The position numbers were made by a program, and so were the translations under genes. From positions 1 to 64,000 of the forward strand of contig VMGC01000005.1 of assembly GCA_007376385.1 (NCBI GenBank): a stretch of DNA of 64,000 bases, in the 5' to 3' direction. This document shows positions 4,591-46,227 of the stretch, piece by piece. This DNA is from Parcubacteria group bacterium Gr01-1014_8 (GTDB taxonomy: Bacteria; Patescibacteriota; Minisyncoccia; Phycocordibacterales; UBA2100). Each line of letters starts with the position of its first letter. Position 1 is the stretch's first letter. The notes beneath the pieces are model-generated. The model saw nothing but the letters and a program-made list of their open reading frames with translations, ran no database searches and had not been told where the DNA came from.

Positions 4591-4712
4591 TATGACCGAC
4601 ATACGATGTCGGTCATAGAGGGTTATCCACTCGGGGTTACTGCTCCCAATGATTCGACTTACAATGTTCGACTTACGATGTCGGTCACTAGATGTCGGTC
4701 ACTACTACATTT
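4591..4712. repeat. REP cluster: one full REP (TATGACCGACATACGATGTCGGTCATA, 4591..4617) plus degenerate REP units (…CGACTTACGATGTCGGTCACTAGATGTCGGTCAC…)
   Basis: Direct sequence comparison with the REP at 3908. Confidence 0.7.
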
Positions 4713-8394: not shown

Positions 8395-8498
8395 TATACC
8401 CCGTGAGATAAAATTAAATTTCGTTTATTCGTGAATTATTCGCCATGTATTCAGCCTAGATATGCATAAACCTGCCGAGTTTTATCTCATGGGGTATA
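8395..8498. repeat. IR element copy A: TATACCCCGTGAGATAAAA …69 nt… TTTTATCTCATGGGGTATA
   Basis: 17–19-bp inverted arms with a single G/T (G·U-compatible) mismatch. Sits between divergent dnaE and rnhB starts; the right arm contains an ATG. Confidence 0.6.
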
Positions 8499-25441: not shown

Positions 25442-26665
25442 ATGGCAAAATATAGCAAAAAAAAGAAGAGTCCGCCGAAGCGCAAAAAGGCGCAAAAGGC
25501 TAGACATAAGAAAGTGGCCCCTCCAAAACTCCCGGCAAAGAGGATAAAGACTCCTCCGCACAATCTGAGAAACATGAAGAAAGTGGCGGGCAAGCACGGC
25601 AACAAAGTCGAAGCGCTTATCGTGCTTGGGCGTGAACGCGGTTACATTACATTTGACGAGATCCTACGCGAATTTCCGACAATAGAGGACAACGTTGTTC
25701 TTCTTGAAGAGATGTACGAGCGATTCGGCACAGCCGGCATTGATGTCTTGGAAAGCGGCAATATGCTCGAAGAGGGGCAGGGCGAAGATGTGTTGGAGAA
25801 GAAAAAACTTCAGCACCGCCGCTCGGACAGTTCGTACGATTCTGTGCAGATGTACCTTCGCGAAATCGGCCAGTACCCGCTGTTGAATGCTCTCCAGGAA
25901 AGAGAGCTGGCGAAACGCATCATCGCGGAAGACGATGAAGCGCGAAGCATTCTCGCTCGCTCGAACCTCCGGCTTGTCGTTTCTATCGCAAAGAAGTACG
26001 TGAACCGCTCTCCGGACCTGACGCTTCTCGACTTGATCCAAGAAGGAAACCTCGGTCTCTTTAAGGCCGTGGACAAATTCGATCACACAAAAGGATACAA
26101 ATTCTCGACGTATGCGACTTGGTGGATTCGCCAAGCTATCACTCGAGCCCTCGCCGACCAGAGCCGCACTATCCGTATTCCAGTGCACATGGTGGAAACT
26201 ATCGCGAAGTACAAGCAAAAAGTGCGCGAACTCTCCCAGCACCTCGGCCGCGACCCGCTTCCGGAAGAAATCGCCGCAGAAATGGGTACAGAAGTAGATA
26301 AGATCTATACAATACAGAAAATCTCGCAGGACACGGTCTCTCTTGAGAGCCCAGTTGGTGAGGACGACGACGAGCGTTCCACGCTTGGCAGTTTTATCGC
26401 AGACGAAACAATCGCAACGCCAGACCAAGACTCTTCGCGACGTATCCTTTCTGAACAAATGGGAGCGATTTTGGAAGAACTTTCACCCAAGGAGAGAAAA
26501 ATCCTTGAGATGCGCAATGGACTTGTTGAAGACGGCGTGTGCTACACACTCGAGGAAGTCGGAAGGGAATTCGGCGTTACTCGTGAGCGTATTCGACAAA
26601 TTGAGGCAAAAGCATTAGAGCGCATTCGTCTCCACGAACGTGCCAAGCAACTCCGTAGTTATTAG
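25442..26665 (+). CDS. rpoD: RNA polymerase primary sigma factor (sigma-70) with Lys-rich N-terminal extension
   Basis: Regions 1.2, 2 ([18 protein letters not shown]), 3 and 4 ([20 protein letters not shown]). Confidence 0.9.
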
Positions 26666-26684: not shown

Positions 26685-26803
26685 ATTAGGCGTGCCGAGG
26701 GATTGCCTTTTTCGGGTCGCTGTCTGCGCGTGCTCGCGCAGCGCTCACTCTCGCGCCGTCGCGCTGCGAGAGACCCTCACAAGGCAATCCCTCTCGGCCT
26801 AAT
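26685..26803. terminator. Long imperfect inverted repeat (ATTAGGCGTGCCGAGGGATTGCCTT … AAGGCAATCCCTCTCGGCCTAAT) enclosing a GC-rich, internally palindromic 70 nt between convergent rpoD and a membrane-protein gene. Putative bidirectional terminator or structured element.
   Basis: Read from sequence. Confidence 0.4.
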
Positions 26804-26828: not shown

Positions 26829-27572
26829 TTATATAAGTTCTAGCTGCGCTAGAGAGAGAAGAAGAATAATCAACGTCAAGGCATACGTGATGGAGTAATT
26901 ACGAAGTGCAATCCAGTTTTCTGCCGGAGATACTACAAGTTTTTGTTTAAGTAGGTTGTCGGGCATGGGGCCACCGTAATGCGTTGGGTCGGCAATTCTC
27001 TCGAATAGGAATGTCGGGATGTACTCTCCAGAAAAATTAAACATTATGGTCTTTTCTTCATGCATTTTTTGGTGACTCAGCTCTATGTCCCCTGCTCCTG
27101 GTTCACCTCCAAGGAAGCAACCTTCGTCAATGGGAATTTCAATAGAATTAAAAAAGACGACGCTAAACTTTGAATAATATTCTCTGAATTCTTGCTCGGA
27201 GTTTCTGTCGTTCTGTAAGGGGATAATTCGTACTGAGAGGACAATTTTTCTTCCGGCAATGAAACCACCTCTTGCTGTAGGTCCAATTCGAAGTGGAATA
27301 CCGGGTTGTCGATTACCAGTAATGCTCACAACCCAACTTTGTTGAACGCGAGGCACAAAAAAACCGGTCATCGCGAGCAATGCCCAAAAAATCAGCAGAA
27401 AAACTATATAAATGCCCGTATCGATTCCAAGGGAATCTTGAGAATTAGCATAAATGAGCAACCCAGCTGATGCTGCAAAGATGAATTCGAAACCAGCAGT
27501 ACGCGACAAGTCATATCTGAAAAAAGTCTTTATCTGACGTGATAGGTTATCTTTGATTTCCCAACCGGTCAT
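26829..27572 (-). CDS. Hypothetical membrane protein (247 aa)
   Basis: Two or more predicted TM segments; no recognisable domain. Confidence 0.4.
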   Translation of the reverse strand: MTGWEIKDNLSRQIKTFFRYDLSRTAGFEFIFAASAGLLIYANSQDSLGIDTGIYIVFLLIFWALLAMTGFFVPRVQQSWVVSITGNRQPGIPLRIGPTARGGFIAGRKIVLSVRIIPLQNDRNSEQEFREYYSKFSVVFFNSIEIPIDEGCFLGGEPGAGDIELSHQKMHEEKTIMFNFSGEYIPTFLFERIADPTHYGGPMPDNLLKQKLVVSPAENWIALRNYSITYALTLIILLLSLAQLELI

Positions 27573-27597
27573 ATGCGCAGCAATCCTACACTTCGAA

Positions 27598-27611
27598 CAA
27601 GGGGAGTCAAC
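27598..27611 (-). promoter_or_regulatory. GTTGACTCCCCTTG motif copy 1 (-35 TTGACT, 16 nt, TAGGAT; ATG ~7 nt after the -10, so leaderless)
   Basis: Plus strand reads CAAGGGGAGTCAAC. Confidence 0.45.
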
Positions 27612-27628
27612 TTGCGATAAATACCGCT

Positions 27629-28564
27629 CTAATTAACCACATTCGCGGGAGACCCTTCCAAAAAACTCATCATATTGCCGACAAACATTCCTTGTTTCTT
27701 TTTTCTGGCCTCTTTCGAAATATATGCCATCGGCGGGTAGATGATGCAGTTTTCGTACGGGGAAAGTTTTGCTAGGTTTTCTTTTGTCATTTCATCGGAA
27801 TGATCAAGAATAAATGTAACATCATCCTGTTTTAACCTCTCCGTCAGCGCATCAATATCAATGAGTTCCATTGGTGCTGTATTAACCACAACTGATTCCT
27901 TTTTAAGTTTTTGTAGCCTTTCTGTGCCAAAGAAACCTTCTGTCTCTGGGGTCTGCGCCAGGTTGATAGATAGGAAGTCGGCTTCGTTGATGAGCGTGTC
28001 AATGTCTTGATACTCAAAGGCCGTATCTTTCTTTTCCCGTGACCAATATTTGACCTTTGCCCCAAAGCCGCTTGCTAGCTCTGCAACTCTGCTTCCGATG
28101 CTTCCGAAACCTATGACGCCGAAAATCGAGCCTCTAATCTCTCGTGCGGCTAGACCTGCTTCAGAATAGTTGCCGGTTCTTCCTCGTTGTTTGCCTGTTT
28201 CGAGATTGCGGATATGTTCCAGAATAACGGCGATTATAAACTCTGCCACAGATTCCGTGCTATATCCGGCAAGATTGGAAACAGGAATGCCTCTCTCTTT
28301 CGCATGTGCGATGTCAACTTTTCCGTATGCTGTCGCAAGTACGCCGATGTATTTCAAGTTTGGCGCGGCGTCCATCATTTCTTTTGTTATTGAAATGCCA
28401 AAATTCACGAGAAGACAATCGGCATCAGAGAGTTCTTTTAAGATGTCAGAACTGTCTTTGGGGAGGCTGATTTTTCGTTCAGTAAGCTCATCGAGCTGTT
28501 TCCAATACAAAGAGTCCAATGCGGATTCAGAGATATTGACGAGAAGCGTTTTCTGAAACTTCAT
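27629..28564 (-). CDS. D-isomer-specific 2-hydroxyacid dehydrogenase family (NAD-binding GVIGFGSIGSRVA)
   Basis: Rossmann GxGxxG and the catalytic-domain layout of D-2-hydroxyacid dehydrogenases. Confidence 0.75.
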   Translation of the reverse strand: MKFQKTLLVNISESALDSLYWKQLDELTERKISLPKDSSDILKELSDADCLLVNFGISITKEMMDAAPNLKYIGVLATAYGKVDIAHAKERGIPVSNLAGYSTESVAEFIIAVILEHIRNLETGKQRGRTGNYSEAGLAAREIRGSIFGVIGFGSIGSRVAELASGFGAKVKYWSREKKDTAFEYQDIDTLINEADFLSINLAQTPETEGFFGTERLQKLKKESVVVNTAPMELIDIDALTERLKQDDVTFILDHSDEMTKENLAKLSPYENCIIYPPMAYISKEARKKKQGMFVGNMMSFLEGSPANVVN

Positions 28565-28579
28565 GCGTAAATGTCATGC

Positions 28580-28623
28580 TATACCCCGCGAGATAAACGG
28601 TCTAGCCGTATCTCACGGGCATA
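28580..28623. repeat. IR element copy D (short hairpin form): TATACCCCGCGAGATAAACGG-tctag-CCGTATCTCACGGGCATA
   Basis: Same arm sequence as copies A/B/C/E but with a 5-nt loop instead of the ~70-nt interior; 15 nt upstream of the dehydrogenase ATG. Confidence 0.5.
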
Positions 28624-28630
28624 CCCCCGC

Positions 28631-28644
28631 CAAGGGGAGTCAAC
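28631..28644 (-). promoter_or_regulatory. GTTGACTCCCCTTG motif copy 2
   Basis: Plus strand CAAGGGGAGTCAAC; between divergent genes. Confidence 0.4.
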
Positions 28645-28672
28645 AGCGAGCTTGTAGGCTACACTTAAGCTC

Positions 28673-29665
28673 ATGGTTGAACAGTCGCGGCCAACGGGTG
28701 AGATCATAAAGGATCCCGGTAACGTCATTGAGGCGCCGGACAAAGTCATTCCGAACATAACCAATAGGTTGATTCTCGAGGAGCACGACGATCCGGTCAC
28801 GGAGCAGCAAATTGGTGACGATGTGCTCTCGTTCTCTGCGGAGAGCATAAGTCCTCTGTATTCAGATGCCCCGCGTTCGTCGATGGTTGTCATGGTGGAT
28901 CGGGGGCAGAGAAAAATCCATGAACATATGAATCGTCATGGAACGTCTCTTTATTTCGCGGACATGCATATGAGTCCGGAAACTCGCGCATTTGAACAGC
29001 GGCGAATGTTCTTGAAGATATTTTTAGGCGGAGGCAGCTCGATTGCCGCGATGAGTTCATCGTCGTTGACAAAAACTGCTCGTTATGCGGCAGGCGTGGC
29101 GATGTTCTGGTTGATGGGTCCGCGGGTGGCGCGTAATGTGATGGCATATACGTCCAGCGGCAAGCATAATGATTTTAGGACTCTGCGCGGGAAAGCGTGG
29201 AAGGCGGTCAGTAATACGCAAGAGGCACTAAATCCGGATGAGCACCGATTTACCGTGGGGCTTAGAAATTCTCTGATTTCGTATAAACATCGGGCCGCAA
29301 CTCGGCTTGCATTGGAGCGTGCCGGGAGTGACACGGCTTCGCGAAACGCTGTGCTTTCGGTTGGAGATGGCCACAATCAGATAAGCGGCATGCTGCACAC
29401 GAAAACAGACGAAGAGCTACTCGAGACGATTCGAAGGGAGTTGCAGCGACTGGTTAAGGTTGATCCGAATGACGATGAAATGTGGGCCAGTATCTCAAAT
29501 ATCCCTGAAGTCTGGTTTACCGACGGTAAAGACCCAAGAGCCCAAGCGACAATCCCGTTGATGGGAGAGCTGAAAGTGGCCGGCGGCAAAGATTTTCTTT
29601 GTTCGAAAATTCATGAGGATTCGCGGCTCTCGGCGCTGGTTCGAGAGGTCAGAAACAAGCAATAA
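28673..29665 (+). CDS. Hypothetical protein (330 aa)
   Basis: ORF only. Confidence 0.4.
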   Translation: MVEQSRPTGEIIKDPGNVIEAPDKVIPNITNRLILEEHDDPVTEQQIGDDVLSFSAESISPLYSDAPRSSMVVMVDRGQRKIHEHMNRHGTSLYFADMHMSPETRAFEQRRMFLKIFLGGGSSIAAMSSSSLTKTARYAAGVAMFWLMGPRVARNVMAYTSSGKHNDFRTLRGKAWKAVSNTQEALNPDEHRFTVGLRNSLISYKHRAATRLALERAGSDTASRNAVLSVGDGHNQISGMLHTKTDEELLETIRRELQRLVKVDPNDDEMWASISNIPEVWFTDGKDPRAQATIPLMGELKVAGGKDFLCSKIHEDSRLSALVREVRNKQ

Positions 29666-29731
29666 AAGACCACACGATAAACGCTCAAGGCGCATATAAC
29701 GGACCAGTTTTGAATTGCTATAGTTAAGCCT

Positions 29732-30058
29732 ATGGAACAGGGAAAAGGTAATCCAGACAATAAACCGAGCGATTCACAGCGGCGAACTGAACGAATTCGA
29801 GAAGCTGCTTTGGAATACAACGGCGAGAGATTTACGGGGCACACGCACACAAATGCGATAGTTGAATTAATGAAGGCCTATCCGGATATCTTTAAAGATG
29901 CGTCTGGAGATGAGGTCGCGTATGGATTTGTCACGACAAATAATAGATTTGTAAGTAGCGACGAGGCGGTGGAAATTGCTCGCGAAAATGACCAGCTTCT
30001 GCCAAATGCGGAAGGCGAGACCTCTTTACGCTCTGAGCATCTAAAAGGAGGCGAGTAA
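29732..30058 (+). CDS. Hypothetical protein (108 aa)
   Basis: ORF only. Confidence 0.3.
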   Translation: MEQGKGNPDNKPSDSQRRTERIREAALEYNGERFTGHTHTNAIVELMKAYPDIFKDASGDEVAYGFVTTNNRFVSSDEAVEIARENDQLLPNAEGETSLRSEHLKGGE

Positions 30059-30084
30059 CACTCAAGTTGCGTCTTTTTTGTCTG

Positions 30085-30098
30085 CACGGGGAGTCAAC
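30085..30098 (-). promoter_or_regulatory. GTTGACTCCCCGTG motif copy 3, overlapping the stop codon of the 306-aa gene, with no obvious downstream gene
   Basis: Plus strand CACGGGGAGTCAAC. Confidence 0.3.
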
Positions 30099-31014
30099 TC
30101 TCGCGGGTTTCAGTTCGTGCCGTATCAAACTTGAGGAATTCTTGCTGGGCGCGGATTAAGAGTCTGCCCTCGCGGTTTATTAGATCATGTTGGCGGTATT
30201 CTGGATATAGAGCTGGGCACCCGCCATGTCGGGAGTGCCTGTTGCTTTTTGTCGGCGGGATTTCACGTGTGACAAAATAGATGAACATCGGATCTATGGG
30301 TCGTTCGGTGTCGTGCGGACGAATAATTGTGCGACCGAGGTACGTTTCAGGTGGTCGAGTTCGTACATCGGCCCAAAAACTGAATGGCGCTAGAGCAAAT
30401 AGTTCGAGGTAGGTGTATCCATGAGGATTAACTTTGTAAACCTTATCATCACCGATTGTCACCTCATCATTTGGACATACTTGTAAGAGTCGCTCGAAGA
30501 GTGCCATATATTCTTGTGGCGTATGCGCAGAGCGCGACACCAGCGATACTACGTCGAGAATTGTCTGGACATTGTCGAGCGTTACGCCCCGTGGCGAACG
30601 CATGTCCAAAGAAGTATTCGCGTATTTGTCGGGGTCATACGGAAGGTCTGACATAACATCTCCCAGAACCTTTTTTAACAGAGTGGAAGAACCAAGCACG
30701 AACCGCTGTAAGTTCGGCGCTACATTAAGGGTTAAATCGAGTACGGGAAGGTAACTTAGGCGCGCACGTGGAAATTGTTCCTGAAAGGCCCGCAATTGCG
30801 GGAAAAGTTGTTCCGTCGTCGTAGGGCCGAAGCTCGGGACAGCTTGTGCTATTGTGAAATTGTGCGACTCTCTGTCTCGTTCATCAAATGCGTGCCTCCA
30901 ATCGTTTTCATTAAGCTTTTCTGACCGTGCGTACACAGTGTCGGTAAAACTTGCCAATCCGCCACCTTCATCGCTCATGACGTGAGCCCAATCTTCGGCA
31001 GATTTTCTTATCAC
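30094..31014 (-). CDS. Hypothetical protein (306 aa; GTG start at 31014 or ATG at 30978)
   Basis: ORF only. Confidence 0.4.
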   Translation of the reverse strand: MIRKSAEDWAHVMSDEGGGLASFTDTVYARSEKLNENDWRHAFDERDRESHNFTIAQAVPSFGPTTTEQLFPQLRAFQEQFPRARLSYLPVLDLTLNVAPNLQRFVLGSSTLLKKVLGDVMSDLPYDPDKYANTSLDMRSPRGVTLDNVQTILDVVSLVSRSAHTPQEYMALFERLLQVCPNDEVTIGDDKVYKVNPHGYTYLELFALAPFSFWADVRTRPPETYLGRTIIRPHDTERPIDPMFIYFVTREIPPTKSNRHSRHGGCPALYPEYRQHDLINREGRLLIRAQQEFLKFDTARTETRES

Positions 31015-31033
31015 AGATTCAGTATACCTCGGG

Positions 31034-31047
31034 CAAGGGGAGTCAAA
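31034..31047 (-). promoter_or_regulatory. TTTGACTCCCCTTG motif copy 4 (-35 TTGACT, -10 TATACT, start codon immediately downstream)
   Basis: Plus strand CAAGGGGAGTCAAA. Confidence 0.45.
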
Positions 31048-31052
31048 TGGAT

Positions 31053-31340
31053 TTAGAGTCCGTGCTCCGCGTGGCTCATGGCAACGACTGCTTTCAGTTC
31101 CTCCGGCGTCATTATGTTATCGAGGATCATCTGTCTGGTCGCAGAATCGAGCGCCTTGTCCGCATCGTCGTCTTCGTCAGTCGTATCTGCCGCGAGAAGA
31201 TCATTCCAGATGGGCATTGCTAACTGGGAGCGTGATATGTCTACTCCTACCCAGTCTTGCAAGCATTCTCTCAGCTTGAGCGAAACGGATACGCGCACAT
31301 CAGGCGTTAACTTCTTTTGCGGAGTTTCGATAGACTCCAT
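31053..31340 (-). CDS. Hypothetical acidic protein (95 aa)
   Basis: ORF only. Confidence 0.3.
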   Translation of the reverse strand: MESIETPQKKLTPDVRVSVSLKLRECLQDWVGVDISRSQLAMPIWNDLLAADTTDEDDDADKALDSATRQMILDNIMTPEELKAVVAMSHAEHGL

Positions 31341-31364
31341 ACGGATACAATGTTACCGCTCGAC

Positions 31365-31378
31365 CAAGGGGAGTCAAC
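31365..31378 (-). promoter_or_regulatory. GTTGACTCCCCTTG motif copy 5
   Basis: Plus strand CAAGGGGAGTCAAC; 25 nt upstream of the 95-aa gene start. Confidence 0.4.
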
Positions 31379-31799
31379 CGCTTTGCGATTTTTTGTAAAT
31401 TGCGAAGCCAATCAGTAATATGGCAGCACCAAAGACATTCGAGAACACATCGGAAGCGGCTTCGACAAGGGACGGAGAGTAGAGTTTCAGATAAAGCGCG
31501 TAATTGGGGAAAAGAGTAAAGAAGATATATTCGAATAGTTCCCATGCTGTTGCTGCAATAAGAACAAAATGCAGAGTCGTTATAGCAGTGAATGTTTGCG
31601 ACAACATAGTGTTCTTTTTACCGAGCCACCGAAGCAATCCGAGAGCGAGCGTTGCGCCCACGAGCGCGTGGAGCACGTTATCGAACCACACGAAGCCATT
31701 CTGAATCTGCGTGTCGTAGATGCCGAGTGCATTATCGCCGAAATGCAGTGCGGCAATGGCGAGAAGAAAACCAACGATATGATATGCAGAAATTTTCAT
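31374..31799 (-). CDS. Hypothetical membrane protein (141 aa, 4 TM)
   Basis: Hydrophobicity pattern. Confidence 0.4.
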   Translation of the reverse strand: MKISAYHIVGFLLAIAALHFGDNALGIYDTQIQNGFVWFDNVLHALVGATLALGLLRWLGKKNTMLSQTFTAITTLHFVLIAATAWELFEYIFFTLFPNYALYLKLYSPSLVEAASDVFSNVFGAAILLIGFAIYKKSQSG

Positions 31800-32594: not shown

Positions 32595-33110
32595 ATGTTA
32601 CGCCTTTTGACGCAGATGATCCGGACTGGCAAGAAGACCGAACCGGCTCCAATACTGGAGCCAATTGACGAGGTCGGGGAGAACCTCCGCAATGCCATTC
32701 ATACGCTCTACGGAGGGCGTATGCTCCGTATCCGCCACGTGGATGCCGGCTCGACAAACGGAGAGGAATTCGAGATGACGGCGCTTGGCAACGCCTACTA
32801 CGACATGGAGCGATTCGGACTTTCATTTGTTGCCTCTCCCCGGCACGCTGACATTTTGACCGTATCCGGGCCAGTAACGCGCAATATGGAACACGCGCTC
32901 AAGACTGCGTATGAAATGACGCCGAAGCCTCGCATTGTCATCGCAGTCGGAGACGGCGCAATTGACGGAGGAATCTGGAAAGATTCGTACGCAATTGTGG
33001 GAGGGGTGAAGGATGTTATTCCGGTTGACGCCGAAATTCCCGGAGATCCACCGTCTCCGCTTGATCTGCTAAAAGGATTTCTAAATGTGTTGCAAGGCGC
33101 AAGAAAATAG
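32595..33110 (+). CDS. NuoB/HycG-family subunit (complex I 20-kDa / hydrogenase small-subunit fold) lacking all four [4Fe-4S] cluster cysteines
   Basis: Aligns well to NuoB (ERFGLSFVASPRHADILTVSGPVTRNMEHAL…IVIAVGDGAIDGG…IPVDAEIPGDPP). CCxxE becomes ST/EE, GxCA becomes GDGA, PGCPP becomes PGDPP. Confidence 0.75.
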   Translation: MLRLLTQMIRTGKKTEPAPILEPIDEVGENLRNAIHTLYGGRMLRIRHVDAGSTNGEEFEMTALGNAYYDMERFGLSFVASPRHADILTVSGPVTRNMEHALKTAYEMTPKPRIVIAVGDGAIDGGIWKDSYAIVGGVKDVIPVDAEIPGDPPSPLDLLKGFLNVLQGARK

Positions 33111-33115
33111 TTTTT

Positions 33116-35080
33116 ATGGTTGCGTCTTTTTTTGTTGCCTCGCTGATTTTGCCGCTTGTAGCAGGAGTTGCTGCGCTTCTTCTCCTGCGTACAAAAGCGG
33201 GTCACATGCTCACGCAATTGGTTTTTGCTCTCGGCGGCCTAAGCGGTGTCGTTGGCGCAACGTTGTTCTATGCGAGCGATGGAGCGAGCACCGTCGTTTT
33301 TCATACGGCACTCTTTAGTCTTGTTGTCGGGACGCTTTCAGTATTCTTTTTGGGAATTATATCCGTCGGTGTTCTTCTCACATCGTTGTATGCGCTTGAG
33401 GGTCTGCGCAGATACAAAAGCGTCTATTCACTCCCGTGGCTTGCCGTTGCGTCTGCTTTTTTCATATTCGGCATGCAGGCAACGGTCATGGCCTCCTCTG
33501 TTGCGGGTTTTCTCGTTGCGTGGGAGTTGATGTCCGTCGCCGCATATTTCCTCGTTATAGCGGATGGCACTGAAGAATCACTGCATGCAGGCTTCTCGTT
33601 TTTTATCATGGCGCACATCGGGTTCGCGAGTCTTGTCGCAGGATTTCTACTTCTTTCTGCGGGCAATCCCTTTGCAGAGTGGCCGGAAGTAGCGCTCGCC
33701 GCAAAAACCATGACGCCGGCGACGCTCTCCGTCGCGTTCTCGCTTTTATTCATCGGCTTCGGCTCAAAAGCGGGTCTTGCCCCGCTCCATCAGTGGCTGC
33801 CCATGGCGCATCCGCAAGCGCCGAGCCACGCTTCGGCGTTGCTATCCGGCGTCATGTTGAAAGTCGCGCTTTTTGGGTTCATTCAATCGCTGTTCTTGTT
33901 TCCATCGGTTCCCCTATCATGGGGCGTTGTTGTCCTTGTGGTAGGACTCGTGTCGGCTTTCTTCGGCGTTCTGCACGCAGTCGTCGAGAGCGACATGAAA
34001 CGAGTACTCGCATGGAGCAGCATCGAGAACATGGGCCTTATTTTCTCTGGCGTAGGCGCAGCAATGATATTGCGCACGTTGCCGTACGAGGCAGGACCCG
34101 TACTCGCATCATCTATCGCCATTTTCGTTGCGCTCCATATCATCAATCACTTTCTCTTCAAGAGCGGGCTCTTCATGGCTGCGGGCGTTATCGTATCGGA
34201 AGTGCATTCTCGTGACATGGATATCATGGGGGGTTTAGCGCAAAAGTGGCCCATCTTCTCCGGCGTTTTTCTAGCTCTCGCGCTCGCAGCGGCAGCGTTG
34301 CCTCCGTTCGGTACATTCTTTGGCGAGTGGATGTATCTGCAATCTCTCGCACTTGCGCTTGTCGGTCTGCCTTTGCCGCTTTCCGTCGTTGCGGGACTCG
34401 TCCTCGCAGCCGTCGCATTGGTGAGCGGCCTTGCTATCGTTGCGTTCGTAAAAATGTTCTCAAGCGTCTTTTTAGGGAGAGCTCGAAATGAACATGCGGA
34501 ACATGTGGGGATGATGCCAATGTCTCTTATGTGGCCGCCAATGGTGTGCGCGATTCTTTCGATTGTTGCCGGGGTGCTTGCATTTCCTTTTTTTTCATCG
34601 CATTTTATGGATGGCGCGAGCATCATGCAAGATGTCGTTATCGTACAAGGCGCCTCCATGAACGCTTGGATCCTGTGGGCGCTTATCGCGGGTCTTGCGA
34701 TCATAGCGCTTCTTCTCGCGCGTTTTCTTCGCGTGCCGGTTCGCATTACGGATACGTGGGATTGCGGGCAGCCGCTCACGTCGCGAATGGAATATACGGC
34801 AACTGGATTCTCGGCACCGTTCCGCTTTTTCTTCCGTGCGTTCTTAGTATCGCGAAAAGAAATGATCGTTACGCCTATCTCTTCAGAGAATCCGTGGATA
34901 GCGAACCGGCGTCTCGAGTGGAGCATTACCTCAACATGGGAGCGGCTCTTTTATCGCCCCGTCGGGCAGGCATTGCTTCGTTTTGCTGAATACGCGCGCA
35001 AGTTCCAAAGCGGCGTCGTCCAGATGTACCTTTTGTTTGTTGTTATCGCTCTTGTCGGAGCATTCATTTTTGCGCTATGA
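33116..35080 (+). CDS. NuoL/HyfB/MnhA-like antiporter-type membrane subunit (654 aa)
   Basis: Multi-TM proton-pumping-subunit signature (…WLPMAHPQAPSHASALLSGVMLK…). Confidence 0.8.
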   Translation: MVASFFVASLILPLVAGVAALLLLRTKAGHMLTQLVFALGGLSGVVGATLFYASDGASTVVFHTALFSLVVGTLSVFFLGIISVGVLLTSLYALEGLRRYKSVYSLPWLAVASAFFIFGMQATVMASSVAGFLVAWELMSVAAYFLVIADGTEESLHAGFSFFIMAHIGFASLVAGFLLLSAGNPFAEWPEVALAAKTMTPATLSVAFSLLFIGFGSKAGLAPLHQWLPMAHPQAPSHASALLSGVMLKVALFGFIQSLFLFPSVPLSWGVVVLVVGLVSAFFGVLHAVVESDMKRVLAWSSIENMGLIFSGVGAAMILRTLPYEAGPVLASSIAIFVALHIINHFLFKSGLFMAAGVIVSEVHSRDMDIMGGLAQKWPIFSGVFLALALAAAALPPFGTFFGEWMYLQSLALALVGLPLPLSVVAGLVLAAVALVSGLAIVAFVKMFSSVFLGRARNEHAEHVGMMPMSLMWPPMVCAILSIVAGVLAFPFFSSHFMDGASIMQDVVIVQGASMNAWILWALIAGLAIIALLLARFLRVPVRITDTWDCGQPLTSRMEYTATGFSAPFRFFFRAFLVSRKEMIVTPISSENPWIANRRLEWSITSTWERLFYRPVGQALLRFAEYARKFQSGVVQMYLLFVVIALVGAFIFAL

Positions 35081-35180
35081 CCCCATGAGAGAAACGATCT
35101 AAATTCTTATGAATCACACCAATTGTAACGAGATGCAGTGCTTCGCTCAGGATCATATCTATTTTTCTCACGGGGTATGA
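35078..35180. repeat. IR element copy E: TGACCCCATGAGAGAAA …69 nt… TTTCTCACGGGGTATGA. Spans the stop codon of the upstream gene and the ATG of the downstream gene.
   Basis: Same arm consensus and ~70-nt spacing as copies A–C. Confidence 0.5.
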
Positions 35181-36124
35181 CCGTCACGATACTCATTTTG
35201 CAGTTCTTCTTAGTGCTCGCGGCAGCGCCCGCGACGGTGGGGATCGTGCGTAAAATAAAAGCGCGCTTTCAGAACAGGCGCGGCGCACGCATCACGCTTC
35301 CATACTGGTCGCTCCTTTCGTTGCTTCGAAAAGAAATGACCATCACGCGGCACAGTTCGTGGGTGTTTCGCATCGTTCCGTTCGTGGTCTTTGGAAGCGC
35401 ACTCGCGCTAGCAGCGCTTATTCCTTCTTTTGCTGTAGGAATTCTGGCCGCGAGCATGAGCAACATTTTTCTTGTCGGCGCCGTCGCCGCGCTCGGCTCC
35501 GCGTTCCTTGTTTTTGGCGGCATGGATACCGGAAGCACGTTCGGCAACATGGGCTCCAGCCGCGAGATGACGATAGCCTCATTGATAGAGCCTGCCGTAT
35601 ACGTATCGCTCGCTTCTCTTGCAACGCTCTCCGGTTCGTGGAGTTTGGATGGCATCGCACTATTTTTTGCCGCAAGTAAATGGGTGGAGATAATACTTCC
35701 GGCCTCACTTACGTTAGTGGCCCTCGTCTTTGTGCTGCTCGCAGAAAATGCGCGCTATCCGGTGGATAATCCTGCAACGCACCTTGAGCTCACAATGGTG
35801 CATGAGGCGATGGTCTTAGAATATTCCGGCCCATACCTCGCAATGCTCGAATACGCGTCGTGGATAAAATTGACTGCGATGCTGATGCTCGTGATGAATC
35901 TCGTAGCGCCGTGGGGTATTCTGACTTCTCCATTTGCTCTTGGGGCCACTCTCATCGCGCTCGTTGCATTTGCCATTAAGCTCGGCGTCGGTGCATTCGT
36001 CATTGCGTTCATCGAATCAACGATCGTAAAAATGCGCTTCTATCGAATGCAGGAATACATGTCTCTTGCGCTCATCGTTGCGCTCGGCGGTCTTGCTATT
36101 TCGCTTGTCTCAATTGCCGTATGA
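35177..36124 (+). CDS. NuoH/HycD-like membrane subunit
   Basis: 8-TM NuoH-like pattern. Start at MTVTILIL (the ORF begins at 35138). Confidence 0.7.
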   Translation: MTVTILILQFFLVLAAAPATVGIVRKIKARFQNRRGARITLPYWSLLSLLRKEMTITRHSSWVFRIVPFVVFGSALALAALIPSFAVGILAASMSNIFLVGAVAALGSAFLVFGGMDTGSTFGNMGSSREMTIASLIEPAVYVSLASLATLSGSWSLDGIALFFAASKWVEIILPASLTLVALVFVLLAENARYPVDNPATHLELTMVHEAMVLEYSGPYLAMLEYASWIKLTAMLMLVMNLVAPWGILTSPFALGATLIALVAFAIKLGVGAFVIAFIESTIVKMRFYRMQEYMSLALIVALGGLAISLVSIAV

Positions 36125-36774
36125 GTGCGCAGCTTACATTCGACCTCCCGACATTATTTGCATGCGGCATGCTGCTTCTATCGTTGATAATGGTAAGCCG
36201 CATGCGTCTTTCGTCGCTTGTCGGTATTTTCCGTTACCAGAGCGCGCTTCTTGCCATCTATGCGGTCATCCTTGCGATCTCTCATGATGAACCAGAATTG
36301 CTCGCGGTCGCCCTTTTTATTGCACTTGTGAAAGTGGTCCTCATACCAGCGTTTCTCATTCGCGTCGCAAAGCAAAATGGCGTGTCAGAGAGGCTTGATT
36401 CGTATTTGCGTCCGACGACGTCCACATCAGTAGGTTTGGTTGCCATCCTTCTCGCGTTTGCCGGAGCAGAGGCGACATTTGCTACGAGCGCGGGGCTCAT
36501 CATAGTTGCGTGCGTTTTTGCTCTCATTCTGACGGGGCTTATTCTTCTCATTACGCGCAAAGACATGTTCGGGCAGGGAATCGGATTTCTCGTGATGGAG
36601 AACGGCATCTATGCATTCGGGCTCGCTCTTGCTGGCGGAATGCCCATCTTTGTCGAGCTTGCAGTTCTGTTTAACCTTCTTGCGCTCACCGTTCTGATGG
36701 TTCTGTTGTTCCGAGTCGCGCAAAAGGTCCACTCTTCTGTTTCAACCGAGCATTTTAAGCGACTCATCGATTGA
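36121..36774 (+). CDS. HyfE-like small membrane subunit (NuoK-like C-terminal part)
   Basis: Hydrophobic 217 aa with GFLVMENGIYAFGLAL motif. Confidence 0.6.
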   Translation: MSAQLTFDLPTLFACGMLLLSLIMVSRMRLSSLVGIFRYQSALLAIYAVILAISHDEPELLAVALFIALVKVVLIPAFLIRVAKQNGVSERLDSYLRPTTSTSVGLVAILLAFAGAEATFATSAGLIIVACVFALILTGLILLITRKDMFGQGIGFLVMENGIYAFGLALAGGMPIFVELAVLFNLLALTVLMVLLFRVAQKVHSSVSTEHFKRLID

Positions 36775-36775
36775 T

Positions 36776-38227
36776 ATGACTGTATCTCTGCTCCTCATGG
36801 TTATTCTTGTCGCTGCTGCGATGCCGTATCTCTGTGCCACAACGAAACAGGTGCGTTCGCTCGCGATGATAGGAAGTACGAGTATTTTCCTGCTTTCTCT
36901 CTTTGTCGGGATTCCGGCGCTGTTTGCTCCAGCCGCTGTTACCGGCGCGGGTTTGTGGTACATCGATGCTCTGGGCGGGTTCTTTGTTCTCTTGATCGGA
37001 TTCGTTCAGTGGACAGGGACGCTCGTAAGCATGACGTACATGAAGGAAGAAGAGGCGCACGGGACGGTAACCGCGGCTAAGGTCAAACGATACTTCGTAC
37101 TCTTGCATCTTTTCGTCCTCGCGATGATGCTTGCTGTCGTCTCGAATAACACAGGCATCGTGTGGGTTGCGCTCGAGGGCACGACGCTGGTGACGACACT
37201 CTTGGTCGGTTTTTACGAACGAAAAGAATCTCTTGAGGCTGCCTGGAAATATCTCATTCTGTGCTCATCGGGCATTGCGTTCGGATTCTTGGGAATTCTT
37301 GTCATGTTCTATGCGGCTTCGACGACGGGGGCGGAAGGCGTTATCGGCATGACGTGGTCAGGGTCGGCACTTCTTGAAGCGGCGCTTCCCGTAAGCGTCG
37401 TAAAGATAGCGTTTGTGCTCTTGCTGATAGGGTTTGGCACCAAGGTTGGTCTTGTCCCGATGCACGCCTGGCTCCCGGACGCCCATTCAAGCGCGCCATC
37501 GCCAATTTCTGGCATGCTCTCGGGGGTGCTTCTCAACGCCGCGTTATTGCCGATACTTCGTTTCAAAAATATTGTTGACGGCGTTGCCGCGCCTGGTTGG
37601 ACCGATCAGCTTCTCATCGTATTCGGGGTTCTCTCTATCGCGCTTCCTGCAGCGTTCGTACTTGTTCAGCGCGATTACAAAAGGTTGCTCGCATATTCGA
37701 GCATTGAACACATGGGGCTCATTACGCTGTCGGCAGGACTCGGCGCGATTGGTTCCGTCGCCGCGACAATTCACATTGCGGGTCACGCTCTCGCGAAATC
37801 TGCGCTCTTCTTTGCGGCGGGAAACATCCTCTTGAAATATCACAGCACTAAATTCGAGAATGTCTCGGGGGTTACACGCATATTGCCTTACACAGGAGGG
37901 CTCTTTCTCGTTGCATTTTTGGCGCTTCTCGGCGTTCCGCCTTCACCCTTGTTTGCGAGCGAATACTTTATGGCGGCTGCTGCGATAGGCACGCATCCCT
38001 ACGCCACCGGCGCCGTCTTTCTCGCCCTCACTATCGTATTTGCCGGATTTGTGCGGCTCTTGATGCCGATGTTGTTTGGGGAGAGTCCTGACAGAGGTGG
38101 GCGGGAGAGATGGAACATATCGCACACCGCTATCACGTTGAATATCGTTTTACTTATCGGACTTGGTATTGCTCTCTGGATTGCTCCTGGAGAGGCGATC
38201 ATCCAACGCATTGCAGAAATTATTTAG
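36776..38227 (+). CDS. NuoN/NuoM/HyfF-like antiporter-type membrane subunit
   Basis: …MHAWLPDAHSSAPSPISGMLSGVLLNAA… signature. Confidence 0.75.
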   Translation: MTVSLLLMVILVAAAMPYLCATTKQVRSLAMIGSTSIFLLSLFVGIPALFAPAAVTGAGLWYIDALGGFFVLLIGFVQWTGTLVSMTYMKEEEAHGTVTAAKVKRYFVLLHLFVLAMMLAVVSNNTGIVWVALEGTTLVTTLLVGFYERKESLEAAWKYLILCSSGIAFGFLGILVMFYAASTTGAEGVIGMTWSGSALLEAALPVSVVKIAFVLLLIGFGTKVGLVPMHAWLPDAHSSAPSPISGMLSGVLLNAALLPILRFKNIVDGVAAPGWTDQLLIVFGVLSIALPAAFVLVQRDYKRLLAYSSIEHMGLITLSAGLGAIGSVAATIHIAGHALAKSALFFAAGNILLKYHSTKFENVSGVTRILPYTGGLFLVAFLALLGVPPSPLFASEYFMAAAAIGTHPYATGAVFLALTIVFAGFVRLLMPMLFGESPDRGGRERWNISHTAITLNIVLLIGLGIALWIAPGEAIIQRIAEII

Positions 38228-38231
38228 AAAT

Positions 38232-39752
38232 ATGACCATTCAATCACTCACACAAAGGATCGGGATCGCGGGAAAAGACTTCGTACTAGTTCCTCGTGAT
38301 GACCTGCACCGGCATGCAGAAGTTTGCGTTGAGGCAGGCGCTCCTCTCATGTTCATGTACGCAACAGAAGAGGCGAACGGATTTGTGGTACATGTAGTAT
38401 TTTCCGCAGAAGACGGCTTTCTGACATTGAAGGCGGAGCTGCCGCGCGATGATCCGACGTATCCGTCGCTCACTCGCAGTATCATGGCAGCGCATTGGTA
38501 TGAGCGATTGATGCATGACCAGTTCGGCATAGTTGCAGAGGGGCACCCCGACTGGCGACGACTCATACACCACGAGAATATCCCTGAAGGCACGCATCCG
38601 CTCCGTAAAGATTTTGCGTGGAATACGAAGCTTCCGCATGCGAATGTTCCGTACCCGATGCACGCAGTCACTGGAAAGGGAATTTATGAAGTTCCGGTCG
38701 GGCCGATACACGCAGGAATAATTGAGCCGGGCCACTTTCGTTTCAACGTTCGCGGAGAGAGAATTCTGACGCTCGAAGGAAAACTGTTCTTCAAGCATAA
38801 GGGCGTCGAGAAATTGGTTGAGGGAAAGACACCGGAGGAGGCTTTTCCCTTCATCGAAAGAATTTCTGGCGACATGGTCGCCGGGCATGCACTCGCGTTT
38901 GCGGAAGCTGTTGAAGCTGCATCTGGAGTCGCCATATCAGCGCGTGCGAAACATCTGCGTGTCCTGTGGAGCGAATTGGAGCGAGCAACGGCGCATGTTT
39001 TTGATATGGGGAATATGGGAGGCAACGGCACAGGATTTACATTCATGGCGGCACAAGGCTTTCGCATGGTCGAAGATATGCGTCGTTTGTATCAATCGCT
39101 CGTAGGGCACCGATTCTTGCGAGGCGCTATTGTGCTTGGCGGCGCGCATGATATTTCTGAGGGTGATGTTGAGAAGATCCGTGCCGTGATAGATGATATT
39201 GAGCGAGACATGAAAAAAGTTCTCGCAATTGCGTATGGAAGCGACGGGCTTATGGAGCGGTTTGAAACGACGGGAATTCTTTCACTTGAGGCCGCGAAAG
39301 CATACGGGGCGCGGGGAACGCCAGCGCGGGCGTCAGGGGTTACTCTCGATATACGAACGGGTCATCCCTATGCCGCGTACAAAGAGTTAGGAGTGAGCGT
39401 GGTGACTGAAAAAGGCGGCGATGTCGCGGCACGCTTCAAGGTCCGCGACAGGGAACTCACGGAGTCGTTCCGTCTTATCCGCGAAGTATTGAGAACTCTT
39501 CCGAAAGGCGAGGCGAAAACGAATTCCAATTTCAAACAGGGGAGTGCGCTCGGCGCAGTTGAATCATGGCGCGGCGCTATCATTGACTGGGTGAGGCTTG
39601 ATGCGGAAGGAAGAATTGACCGCTGTGCAATTTCAGACCCATCGTTCTGTAACTGGTCTCTTTTTGGCGAACTTGCGCCTGGCAACATTGTCCCGGACTT
39701 TCCTTTGTGTAATAAGAGTTTGAACCTTTCGTATTCAGGGACGGACCTCTAA
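38232..39752 (+). CDS. Fused NuoC-NuoD / HycE-like large-subunit homologue lacking the NiFe-binding cysteine motifs
   Basis: NuoC-like N-terminal region plus NuoD/HycE-like core. RxCGxC position reads RISGDM; C-terminal DPCxxC reads DPSFCN. Confidence 0.75.
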   Translation: MTIQSLTQRIGIAGKDFVLVPRDDLHRHAEVCVEAGAPLMFMYATEEANGFVVHVVFSAEDGFLTLKAELPRDDPTYPSLTRSIMAAHWYERLMHDQFGIVAEGHPDWRRLIHHENIPEGTHPLRKDFAWNTKLPHANVPYPMHAVTGKGIYEVPVGPIHAGIIEPGHFRFNVRGERILTLEGKLFFKHKGVEKLVEGKTPEEAFPFIERISGDMVAGHALAFAEAVEAASGVAISARAKHLRVLWSELERATAHVFDMGNMGGNGTGFTFMAAQGFRMVEDMRRLYQSLVGHRFLRGAIVLGGAHDISEGDVEKIRAVIDDIERDMKKVLAIAYGSDGLMERFETTGILSLEAAKAYGARGTPARASGVTLDIRTGHPYAAYKELGVSVVTEKGGDVAARFKVRDRELTESFRLIREVLRTLPKGEAKTNSNFKQGSALGAVESWRGAIIDWVRLDAEGRIDRCAISDPSFCNWSLFGELAPGNIVPDFPLCNKSLNLSYSGTDL

Positions 39753-46112: not shown

Positions 46113-46215
46113 TATACCCCGTGAGATAACTGTTTTCGAGCTACACAAGATGTTAGGACACAGTAAAATATTTAATTCGTCAACAAGCTATACACGTCTT
46201 ATCTCATGGGGTATA
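46113..46215. repeat. IR element copy B: TATACCCCGTGAGATAA …68 nt… CTTATCTCATGGGGTATA
   Basis: Arms identical to copy A, including the G/T mismatch. Confidence 0.6.
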
Positions 46216-46227
46216 GTCTCTCCCTCT

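What the first reader, a model, noticed from the sequence alone, without database searches (positions are those of the whole stretch)
27598..31378. Five identical GTTGACTCCCCTTG promoter-like motifs driving a block of hypothetical genes with leaderless starts
The 14-mer, read on the minus strand, occurs at 27598, 28631, 30085, 31034 and 31365. Four copies lie 20–70 nt upstream of minus-strand gene starts: a membrane protein, a 2-hydroxyacid dehydrogenase, a 306-aa hypothetical and a 95-aa acidic protein. Where a -10 can be seen (TAGGAT, TATACT), the start codon follows within ~7 nt, implying leaderless mRNAs. The conservation beyond the TTGACT hexamer (CCCCTTG) suggests an extended -35 or an activator or alternative-sigma site defining a small regulon of uncharacterised genes. 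The fifth copy overlaps a stop codon and has no obvious target.
Basis: seen in the sequence. Interest (0 to 1): 0.5.

Follow-up and report, generated by a model that had tools for sequence, protein, structure and literature searches.

The report
Repeated promoter box in accessory genes
A 14-base sequence repeated five times in a 3.8-kb block of accessory genes next to the main sigma-factor gene of an uncultured Parcubacteria (CPR) bacterium is most likely the upstream half of a copied promoter that gives each gene its own transcript starting almost at the start codon; it is a real, local regulatory motif, not a new kind of system.

Summary
The motif is real. There are three exact copies of GTTGACTCCCCTTG and two one-mismatch copies, all on the minus strand and all at gene boundaries. 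About 0.2 copies are expected by chance. No further copy lies in about 74 kb of this genome or in 1.47 Mb from relatives.

Three copies (27598, 31034, 31365) sit 7-9 nt upstream of a TAnnnT -10 hexamer, with a start codon 6-10 nt after that hexamer. These are credible leaderless, RpoD-type promoters. The copy at 28631 has only a poor -10 of its own. It lies about 47 nt upstream of a different promoter-like box that is closer to the dehydrogenase gene. The copy at 30085 has no -10 and faces the 3' end of a convergent gene, so it is probably a relic.

Leaderless starts and missing Shine-Dalgarno sites occur across the whole window, so they are not special to this block. The block is a variable insertion convergent on rpoD.

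Related Kaiserbacteria-like genomes carry a different, 33-nt conserved promoter at the same place and in the same orientation. It sits in front of more than 25 unrelated genes.

What recognises the invariant CCCCTTG is unknown. This is a new member of a known kind and of moderate interest.

The parts
27598..27611 (-). Box copy c1 (exact GTTGACTCCCCTTG). TTGACT is the -35-like hexamer.
27583..27588 (-). -10 hexamer TAGGAT of c1. It lies 16 nt after TTGACT and 10 nt before the ATG at 27572.
26829..27572 (-). 247-aa hydrophobic protein with no family match; the target of c1.
28631..28644 (-). Box copy c2 (exact), in the divergent intergenic region. Its own -10 is poor (TATGCC, 28618-28623, 14-nt spacer). 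On the + strand the box covers the -35 region of the hyp330 promoter.
28578..28596 (-). Genome-wide 'class A' box TTATCTCGCGGGGTATAGC, 13 nt before the dehydrogenase ATG. It is the more likely promoter of that gene.
27629..28564 (-). D-2-hydroxyacid dehydrogenase family gene (311 aa).
28673..30058 (+). Oppositely oriented two-gene module: a 330-aa hypothetical and a 108-aa T4_Y16D-domain protein. Each has a -10 exactly 7 nt before its ATG (TACACT at 28660-28665, TATAGT at 29719-29724). The module is flanked by box copies c2 and c3.
30085..30098 (-). Box copy c3 (GTTGACTCCCCGTG). It contains the TGA stop of the 306-aa gene, has no -10 downstream, and faces the 3' end of the convergent Y16D gene. 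Probably an orphan or relic.
30094..31014 (-). 306-aa hypothetical protein. The true start is the GTG at 31014, not the caller's ATG at 30978.
31034..31047 (-). Box copy c4 (TTTGACTCCCCTTG).
31021..31026 (-). -10 hexamer TATACT of c4. It lies 14 nt after TTGACT and 6 nt before the GTG at 31014. The same TATACT-6 nt-start arrangement occurs in homologues.
31053..31340 (-). 95-aa acidic protein with no family match; the target of c5.
31365..31378 (-). Box copy c5 (exact). It contains the TGA stop of the upstream DUF2238 gene.
31350..31355 (-). -10 hexamer TAACAT of c5. It lies 16 nt after TTGACT and 9 nt before the ATG at 31340.
31374..31799 (-). DUF2238-like membrane protein, the upstream neighbour of c5. 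It has no box of its own.
25442..26665 (+). rpoD (group-1 sigma factor). The box-carrying block is convergent on it.
26697..26793 (.). Inverted repeat with 34-nt arms between the convergent rpoD and 247-aa genes. Probably a bidirectional terminator that closes the block.
   Evidence: I1

Best explanation
**What it is.** The 14-mer is the upstream half of a small family of related RpoD (sigma-70-type) promoters. These promoters have been copied in front of unrelated genes in a variable accessory-gene block that runs convergent to rpoD.

**How it is built.** TTGACT serves as the -35 element. The invariant CCCCTTG that follows is an added determinant. It may be a contact for a still unknown factor, or a part of the copied module kept by selection. 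A -10 of the form G-n-TAnnnT follows 7-9 nt after the box.

**How it works.** Transcription would start at or within a few bases of the start codon. Each gene would therefore get its own leaderless mRNA. This organism has almost no Shine-Dalgarno sites. A gene that is not tightly packed against its upstream neighbour therefore probably needs its own transcription start to be translated. That would explain one promoter per gene inside spacers of only 33-56 nt.

**Status of the five copies.**
- c1, c4 and c5 look like full promoters.
- c2 is a weak or purely regulatory copy in a divergent promoter region.
- c3 is a relic.

**Shown and inferred.** Shown: the sequences, positions, spacings, conservation pattern and comparative context. 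Inferred: transcription initiation, the role of RpoD, co-regulation, and the reason for the invariant CCCCTTG.
For: - **Above chance and sharply bounded.** Five copies against 0.21 expected. All are at gene boundaries and on the strand of the flanking genes. Identity is 94% in the box and 26-30% in the flanks.
- **Promoter architecture.** c1 and c5 are TTGACT-16 nt-TAGGAT and TTGACT-16 nt-TAACAT, and the sigma-70 scan picked both. Start codons lie 10, 9 and 6 nt after the -10 of c1, c5 and c4.
- **Longer shared unit.** The four copies that have a -10-like hexamer share a 31-nt unit at 62-81% identity (family D1).
- **Leaderless start of the 306-aa gene.** Residues K4, S5 and W9, upstream of the caller's ATG, are invariant in 8 homologues. 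The homologues in L083 and L086 have TATACT-6 nt-ATG.
- **Matching sigma factor.** RpoD has all sigma-70 regions. Its region 4.2 helix [14 protein letters not shown] equals the E. coli segment as I recall it.
- **Genome-wide context.** SD-like motifs occur before 3 of 39 genes. A TAnnnT hexamer lies 4-13 nt before the start in 12 of 22 genes with a spacer over 25 nt or a divergent neighbour, against 4 of 19 tightly packed genes. A subgroup of Parcubacteria lacks the anti-SD motif in 16S rRNA (PMC9297842).
- **Comparable arrays in relatives.**
  - Ten related genomes carry ATTTGGACAAA(C/G)CCGAGGCGGGGGTATAGGATT, which has a -35, a spacer and a -10.
  - It always lies on the strand opposite rpoD, 0.4-5.3 kb past the end of rpoD.
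  - It is often preceded by a hairpin and T-run terminator.
  - The downstream genes are unrelated: 25 predicted ORFs share only one homologous pair.
- **Variable block.** The block's genes, apart from Y16D, are missing from all 80 relatives' rpoD loci searched. In L003 only about 700 nt separate rpoD from the DUF1905 gene that borders the block here. GC is 47.8% in the block and 50.8% elsewhere.
Against: - c4 and c2 have 14-nt spacers, too short for standard -35/-10 co-recognition.
- c2's hexamer TATGCC lacks the conserved final T, and a better promoter-like box lies closer to the gene.
- c3 has no -10 at all.
- Ordinary sigma-70 recognition does not explain invariance of the 7 nt after the hexamer.
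- The profile built from the relatives' motif does not score our boxes. The link to the relatives is one of position and architecture, not demonstrable sequence homology.
- There are no transcript data.
- Only about 74 kb of the genome could be examined.
Confidence: 0.6

Rival explanations
1. The box is mainly an operator or activator site for a dedicated DNA-binding regulator, for example an OmpR/PhoB-type response regulator reading TTGAC-N5-TTGnn direct repeats, or a repressor. The promoters themselves would be driven by the -10, and the resemblance to a -35 would be secondary.
For: - The sequence is invariant for 7 nt beyond the hexamer.
- The distance to the -10 varies between 7 and 9 nt, and two copies (c2, c3) lack a usable -10.
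- The 306-aa gene's homologues keep the -10 and the leaderless start but not the -35. This suggests promoters in this lineage are dominated by the -10.
- Other promoter-like boxes in this genome and its relatives conserve the spacer plus the -10 rather than the -35.
- An OmpR-type regulator and a histidine kinase lie about 10 kb beyond the window.
Against: - No regulator gene lies in or beside the block.
- The box is not palindromic, and its second 'half-site' conserves only TTG.
- TTGACT lies 16 nt from a good -10 in c1 and c5, which is what RpoD itself needs.
Confidence: 0.2
2. The box is recognised by an alternative sigma factor encoded elsewhere in the genome, and it defines that factor's small regulon.
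For: - A 13-14-nt extended upstream element that is local to one gene block is typical of a specialised regulon.
- The rest of the genome could not be examined.
Against: - The hexamers are TTGACT and TAnnnT, which is the group-1 consensus, not an ECF-type GGAAC/CGTC or a sigma-54 type.
- The only sigma factor gene in about 74 kb is rpoD.
Confidence: 0.08
3. The box is a recombination or junction site at which genes or gene modules were inserted, giving an integron-like cassette array. The promoter function would then be a by-product of each junction.
For: - Every gene or module in the block is bounded by a box.
- The one inverted module (28673-30058) is flanked by direct copies c2 and c3, and c3 lost its -10, as expected after insertion next to the box.
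- Two boxes supply the stop codon of the upstream gene.
- GTTGACT matches 6 of 7 positions of the integron core GTTRRRY (consensus from my own knowledge).
- The corresponding arrays in relatives hold unrelated genes.
Against: - No integrase or recombinase lies near the block. The only transposase-like gene in the window is an IS200-like gene 23 kb away.
- No attC-like inverted repeats flank the boxes.
- The two available assemblies have the same gene order, so no mobility is seen.
- The block has no DNA match in phage or plasmid collections.
Confidence: 0.07
4. The copies are non-functional leftovers of local duplication and have no present role.
For: - c3 looks decayed: it has one substitution and no -10.
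- There are no expression data.
Against: Flanks are at random-level identity while the box is 94% identical. All copies are at gene boundaries in one orientation. Three copies have a correctly placed -10 and start codon.
Confidence: 0.05

Closest known systems
Sigma-70 (RpoD) promoters with a near-consensus -35 (TTGACA) and a -10 (TAnnnT)
   Same: - TTGACT matches 5 of 6 positions in all five copies.
- c1 and c5 have a 16-nt spacer and a TAnnnT hexamer.
- The cognate sigma factor has an E. coli-like region 4.2.
   Different: - A further 7 nt (CCCCTTG) are invariant.
- Two copies have a 14-nt spacer and one has no -10.
- The copies are confined to one 3.8-kb block.
Leaderless-gene promoters as described in Actinobacteria and Deinococcus, where the -10 lies 6-8 nt before the start codon (from my own knowledge of those systems)
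   Same: - The -10 hexamer lies 6-10 nt before the ATG or GTG, with no Shine-Dalgarno site.
- A GTG leaderless start is supported for the 306-aa gene.
   Different: - The organism is a Parcubacteria-group (CPR) bacterium.
- No transcription start data exist.
- The 9-10 nt distances of c1 and c5 would leave a 2-4 nt leader.
Putative mobile promoters (Matus-Garcia, Nijveen and van Passel 2012, PMC3488235)
   Same: Highly similar upstream sequence sits in front of non-homologous genes within one genome. Most of the downstream genes are hypothetical.
   Different: That class is defined as 50-100 nt at 80% identity or more. Here only 14 nt are conserved, with a 31-nt unit at 62-81% identity, so the formal definition is not met.
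Integron attC / cassette arrays
   Same: A short repeated site bounds each gene of a variable array, and the core is GTTRRRY-like.
   Different: - There is no integrase.
- There are no attC inverted repeats.
- The genes carry their own -10 elements.
- One module is inverted.
The 33-nt box ATTTGGACAAA(C/G)CCGAGGCGGGGGTATAGGATT of related Kaiserbacteria-like genomes
   Same: - It lies just past rpoD on the opposite strand.
- There is one copy per gene, in front of unrelated and often small genes.
- It has -35, spacer and -10 logic, and several copies have leaderless starts.
   Different: - The sequence differs, and the relatives' profile does not score our boxes.
- In the relatives the spacer and -10 are the most conserved part and terminators precede the box.
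- Here only the -35 side is conserved and there are no terminators.

Membership tests
RpoD/sigma-70-type promoter | -35 hexamer close to TTGACA | tested here: met
   TTGACT (5 of 6 positions) in all five copies.
RpoD/sigma-70-type promoter | -10 hexamer TAnnnT placed 16-18 nt after the -35 | tested here: inconclusive
   - Met for c1 (TAGGAT, 16 nt) and c5 (TAACAT, 16 nt).
- c4 has TATACT at 14 nt.
- c2 has TATGCC at 14 nt.
- c3 has none.
RpoD/sigma-70-type promoter | A cognate group-1 sigma factor with a -35-reading region 4.2 | tested here: met
   rpoD at 25442-26665 has regions 1.1 to 4.
RpoD/sigma-70-type promoter | Transcription starts about 7 nt after the -10 | not testable with these tools
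   No transcript data are available for this uncultured organism.
Leaderless mRNA genes | Start codon at or within a few nt of the predicted transcript 5' end, with no Shine-Dalgarno site | tested here: met
   - c4 has 6 nt from the -10 to the GTG, c5 has 9 nt and c1 has 10 nt, with no SD.
- The N-terminal alignment supports the GTG start.
- Not met for c2's own hexamer, which lies 53 nt from the ATG.
Putative mobile promoters (PMC3488235) | Downstream genes are non-homologous | tested here: met
   There were no BLASTP hits among the four downstream proteins.
Putative mobile promoters (PMC3488235) | At least 50 nt of upstream sequence at 80% identity or more | tested here: not met
   There are 14 conserved nt. 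The longest unit is 31 nt at 62-81% identity.
Integron cassette array | An integron integrase next to the array | tested here: not met
   No integrase or recombinase domain appeared in any called gene or larger ORF of the window or of the 10 kb beyond it.
Integron cassette array | attC sites with paired inverted core sites | tested here: not met
   No inverted repeats are associated with the boxes.
Alternative-sigma (ECF-type) promoter | A non-group-1 -35/-10 pair and a cognate sigma factor gene | tested here: not met
   The hexamers are of the group-1 type. No second sigma factor gene lies in about 74 kb. The rest of the genome was not seen.
OmpR/PhoB-type response-regulator box | Two direct-repeat half-sites about 10-11 bp apart that overlap the -35 | tested here: inconclusive
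   The pattern is TTGACtccccTTGnn. The second half conserves only TTG, in 4 of 5 copies. A regulator gene exists about 10 kb past the window, but no link could be tested.
Kaiserbacteria 33-nt rpoD-adjacent promoter box (defined here) | Sequence match to the profile of the relatives' box | tested here: not met
   nhmmer gave only non-significant partial hits at -10 regions in the window: best E = 3.6, with c1 at E = 15 and c2 at E = 130.
Kaiserbacteria 33-nt rpoD-adjacent promoter box (defined here) | Position just past rpoD, on the opposite strand, with one copy per unrelated gene | tested here: met
   Window. Relatives.

The most novel reading that the evidence does not exclude
Kaiserbacteria-like Parcubacteria may keep a hypervariable gene array just past rpoD and convergent on it. 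Newly acquired genes would be fitted there with a portable, lineage-specific promoter module bound by an unknown CPR transcription factor. That module is the 14-mer in this genome and a 33-nt box in the relatives. The boxes would also serve as junctions where genes are inserted or swapped. This would be a gene-capture and expression platform without an integron integrase.
Probability: 0.12. Interest if true: 0.7.

Novelty: new member of a known kind. Interest (0 to 1): 0.4.

Why it matters
My three literature searches found no description of promoters or translation start signals in CPR/Patescibacteria. This block offers a compact, testable example. Each gene has a near-consensus RpoD-type promoter and a transcript that starts at the start codon, in an organism that seems to lack Shine-Dalgarno sites.

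If confirmed, it would help in three ways:
- It would improve gene-start calls. The caller's start for the 306-aa gene is 12 codons too far downstream.
- It would explain how accessory genes get expressed in these reduced genomes.
- It would point to a conserved variable array next to rpoD in a whole lineage.

The motif alone is not a new mechanism.

Tried and rejected
- **Phage or plasmid origin.** The block's proteins had no informative PHROG or PADLOC hits. The block had no DNA match in phage or plasmid collections. The 14-mer gave only 32 single hits in IMG/VR, with no multi-copy contig.
- **Wider occurrence of the 14-mer.**
The one locus with two copies is a duplicated peroxiredoxin coding stretch.
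  - Relatives (1.47 Mb) have no copy at 1 mismatch or fewer.
- **Known RNA or tRNA.** The window has no Rfam match at gathering score and no tRNA gene.
- **RNA structure at c2.** The fold is only marginally better than shuffles (z = -2.1). The hairpin is simply two inverted promoter-like boxes.
- **Uptake sequence, Chi, parS or iteron readings.** Rejected because the motif is local, not palindromic, not tandem, and absent from the other ~70 kb.
- **Homology to the relatives' 33-nt box.** Tested with a profile and not supported.
- **Function of the hypothetical proteins.** NCBIfam and PDB sequence searches gave nothing useful.
- **More genome sequence.** Only 10 kb beyond one end of the window could be fetched. 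The look-up for the other end failed.
- **Literature on CPR promoters or leaderless genes.** Nothing was found.

Full report
**Observation**

Three are exact (27598, 28631, 31365). Two have one mismatch each: 30085 reads ...CCGTG and 31034 begins with T.
- Dinucleotide-preserving shuffles give 0.21 such sites per window, and none of 100 shuffles reached five.
- Allowing three mismatches adds two weak sites inside genes, which is not above chance.
- The same copies are present in two independent assemblies of this population, one from ENA and one from Logan.

An alignment of the five sites with 30 nt of flank on each side shows that conservation stops sharply at the edges of the box. Mean pairwise identity is 94% in the box and 26-30% in either flank. 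Only 9.8% of the block is non-coding. Yet every copy lies in a spacer or overlaps just the last 5 nt of the upstream gene, and all are on the strand of the flanking genes. In two copies (30085 and 31365) the TGA inside GTTGAC is the stop codon of the upstream gene.

**Source and neighbourhood**

The window is part of a 189.8-kb metagenome contig. NCBI names the organism Parcubacteria group bacterium Gr01-1014_8. Its RpoD is 64-89% identical over the best-matching segment to that of Kaiserbacteria-like and Paceibacterota MAGs.

The boxes lie in a roughly 5-kb block between rpoD (25442-26665, plus strand) and a DUF1905 gene. On the minus strand the block holds:
- a DUF2238-like protein;
- a 95-aa acidic protein;
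- a 306-aa hypothetical protein;
- a D-2-hydroxyacid dehydrogenase;
- a 247-aa hydrophobic protein.

A two-gene plus-strand module interrupts this run. It encodes a 330-aa hypothetical protein and a T4_Y16D-domain protein.

Apart from Y16D, none of the block's genes was found in the 80 relatives' rpoD loci. In the relative L003 only about 700 nt separate rpoD from its DUF1905 gene. GC is 47.8% in the block and 50.8% elsewhere. The block is therefore a variable accessory region. It shows no phage, plasmid or defence signature.

**Anatomy of each copy**

| Copy | Layout | Reading |
|---|---|---|
| c5 (31365) | TTGACT, 16 nt, TAACAT, 9 nt, ATG of the 95-aa gene | full promoter |
| c1 (27598) | TTGACT, 16 nt, TAGGAT, 10 nt, ATG of the 247-aa gene | full promoter |
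| c4 (31034) | TTGACT, 14 nt, TATACT, 6 nt, GTG at 31014 | promoter with a short spacer |
| c2 (28631) | TTGACT, 14 nt, TATGCC, ATG 53 nt further on | weak, or regulatory only |
| c3 (30085) | no -10, faces the 3' end of the Y16D gene | relic |

- The simple sigma-70 scan picks up both c5 and c1.
- For c4, the gene caller placed the start of the 306-aa gene at an ATG 36 nt downstream of the GTG. In an alignment of eight homologues, residues K4, S5 and W9 upstream of that ATG are invariant. The homologues in L083 and L086 also show TATACT-6 nt-ATG. The GTG is therefore the real, leaderless start.
- For c2, a different box (TTATCTCGCGGGGTATAGC, 28578-28596) lies 13 nt before the dehydrogenase ATG and is the likelier promoter. 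Read on the plus strand, c2 covers the -35 region of the 330-aa gene's own promoter (TACACT, then 7 nt, then ATG). One bound factor at c2 could therefore affect both directions.
- In L083, a copy of the relatives' box likewise faces the 3' end of that genome's Y16D gene with no gene behind it. I read both that copy and c3 as relics of rearrangement.
- The four copies with a -10-like hexamer share a 31-nt unit at 62-81% identity. c1, c4 and c5 share TTGACTCCCCTTGnyCGArG (D1).

**Leaderless starts are a property of the genome, not of the block**
- Across the gene calls available for this contig, SD-like motifs occur before only 3 of 39 genes, all at an implausible 15-16 nt.
- A TAnnnT hexamer lies 4-13 nt before the start in 12 of 22 genes with a spacer over 25 nt or a divergent neighbour. 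The figure is 4 of 19 for tightly packed genes.
- Many starts elsewhere in the window have a -10 exactly 6-7 nt upstream.
- A published survey found the anti-SD motif in only 48% of Parcubacteria (PMC9297842).

Together these give a mechanistic reason for one promoter per gene. Without SD-led initiation, a gene that is not translationally coupled to its neighbour needs a transcript that begins at its start codon. This reasoning is an inference.

**Is the box a -35 element?**

In favour:
- TTGACT matches the consensus at 5 of 6 positions.
- c1 and c5 have proper spacing.
- RpoD has all the usual regions.
- Its region 4.2 helix is identical to the E. coli sigma-70 segment as I recall it.

Against a plain -35:
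- c2 and c4 have 14-nt spacers.
- c3 has no -10.
- Sigma contacts do not explain the invariant CCCCTTG.

No regulator, second sigma factor or recombinase is encoded in the window or in the 10 kb beyond it. The only mobile-element gene is an IS200-like transposase 23 kb away. My best reading (confidence 0.6) is therefore a copied RpoD-type promoter module whose conserved upstream half also carries an unidentified determinant. The main rival (0.2) is that the box is chiefly a regulator site on promoters driven by the -10.

**Relatives**

Inspection of loci holding homologues of the 306-aa protein showed a repeated box, and a search for repeated 11-mers in the rpoD loci showed the same one. A profile search found ATTTGGACAAA(C/G)CCGAGGCGGGGGTATAGGATT at E < 0.01 in ten different genomes.
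- It is always on the strand opposite rpoD, 0.4-5.3 kb beyond the end of rpoD. None lies in the 10 kb upstream.
- L028 has seven copies in 3.6 kb. Each follows a hairpin and T-run, and each precedes a separate gene. Some starts lie 6 nt after the -10.
- The 25 downstream ORFs predicted in the relatives form 24 unrelated groups.

Promoter arrays convergent on rpoD are therefore a lineage feature, and the window's 14-mer occupies the same niche. However, the relatives' profile does not score the window's boxes. The link rests on position and architecture, not on proven sequence homology.

**Distribution**

No other copy exists in the 64-kb window or in 10 kb beyond it. Relatives, viral contigs and metagenome contigs gave only chance-level hits. 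On present data the motif is local to this block and to this species. The rest of the genome could not be fetched.

**Comparison with known kinds**
- The closest mechanism is an ordinary sigma-70-type promoter that drives leaderless genes.
- The closest evolutionary concept is promoter propagation ('putative mobile promoters', PMC3488235). The formal criterion of 50 nt at 80% identity is not met.
- An integron-like cassette reading is not excluded. It lacks an integrase and attC structure.

**Verdict**

The promoter and leaderless reading is sound for three copies, doubtful for one and wrong for one. The regulon idea is plausible but untested. This is a new member of a known kind, of moderate interest (0.4). 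The lineage-wide array next to rpoD is the part most worth following up.

Noticed in passing
window 8395-8408(-)/8485-8498(+), 28580-28593(-), 35166-35179(+), 46113-46126(-)/46202-46215(+), 56958-56971(-)/57046-57059(+); also L119 ~13090-13300: A second, more widespread box, TTATCTCAYGGGGTATA, has 8 copies in the window against about 0.3 expected. It ends in a -10-like TATAnn, and where the downstream gene is clear the start codon follows 6-13 nt after that hexamer. Six copies form three outward-facing pairs in divergent intergenic regions, with a constant 75-77 nt between the boxes. It is almost absent from the relatives' loci. It may be this genome's general promoter or regulator box.
   Followed up: partly
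L028 2012-5572(-), L083 7904-9319(+), L086 5937-7965(+), L024 7718-10467(-), L021 12242-14279(-), L020, L015, L026, L007, L005: A 33-nt box, ATTTGGACAAA(C/G)CCGAGGCGGGGGTATAGGATT, is nearly invariant across ten Kaiserbacteria-like genomes. It always lies just past rpoD on the opposite strand, in front of more than 20 unrelated and mostly small genes. The spacer and -10 are more conserved than the -35.
   Followed up: partly
L028 ~1990(-), L020 ~11978(-), L024 ~8662(-), L086 ~8500(+), L083 9320-9345(+): A second conserved promoter-like unit occurs in the relatives: TAGACAAATATTCATGrrGGAGTAGCATT, followed by 6-8 nt and then ATG. In several genomes (L028, L020, L024, L083) it is fused directly behind a truncated copy of the 33-nt box. 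In L083 it is itself truncated against the Y16D gene.
   Followed up: partly
window 26697-26793: An inverted repeat with 34-nt arms (79% complementary, 29-nt loop) lies between the convergent rpoD and 247-aa genes. It is probably a bidirectional terminator.
   Followed up: no
window 30978-31014: The public gene call for the 306-aa protein (294 aa, ATG at 30978) probably starts 12 codons too late. Residues conserved in homologues lie upstream of it, and the GTG at 31014 lies 6 nt after a TATACT.
   Followed up: yes
whole window, L001, L119: Shine-Dalgarno-like motifs are almost absent before genes (3 of 39, all at the wrong distance). Operon genes overlap or abut, and many first genes have a -10 placed 5-7 nt before the start. 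This fits reports that some Parcubacteria lack the anti-SD motif.
   Followed up: partly
L030 959-1210, L015 3196-3396, L013 3994-4218 and 4568-4861, L024 6468-6713; window 29732-30058: In several relatives the small T4_Y16D-domain gene lies downstream of rpoD on the same strand, directly after it in L030, L015 and L013. There it may be co-transcribed with rpoD. In the window it is separated from rpoD by two box-driven genes and the 330-aa gene.
   Followed up: partly
window 3929-4582(-), repeats at 3908-3932, 4592-4616, 4687-4701: An IS200-like (Y1 transposase) gene is flanked by palindromic ATGACCGACAT...ATGTCGGTCAT repeats. One more copy of the 11-mer lies at 60281.
   Followed up: no
window 32595-39752(+): An operon resembling a membrane-bound NiFe hydrogenase or complex I lies between the accessory block and a PD-(D/E)XK nuclease gene. 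It includes Oxidored_q6, Proton_antipo_M, NADHdh and a fused 30-kDa/49-kDa subunit. In the relatives L083 and L086 a PD-(D/E)XK nuclease gene borders the array directly.
   Followed up: no
window 9575-10480(+), 46150-46656(+): The window encodes a NusB-NUDIX fusion protein and a SET-domain protein.
   Followed up: no
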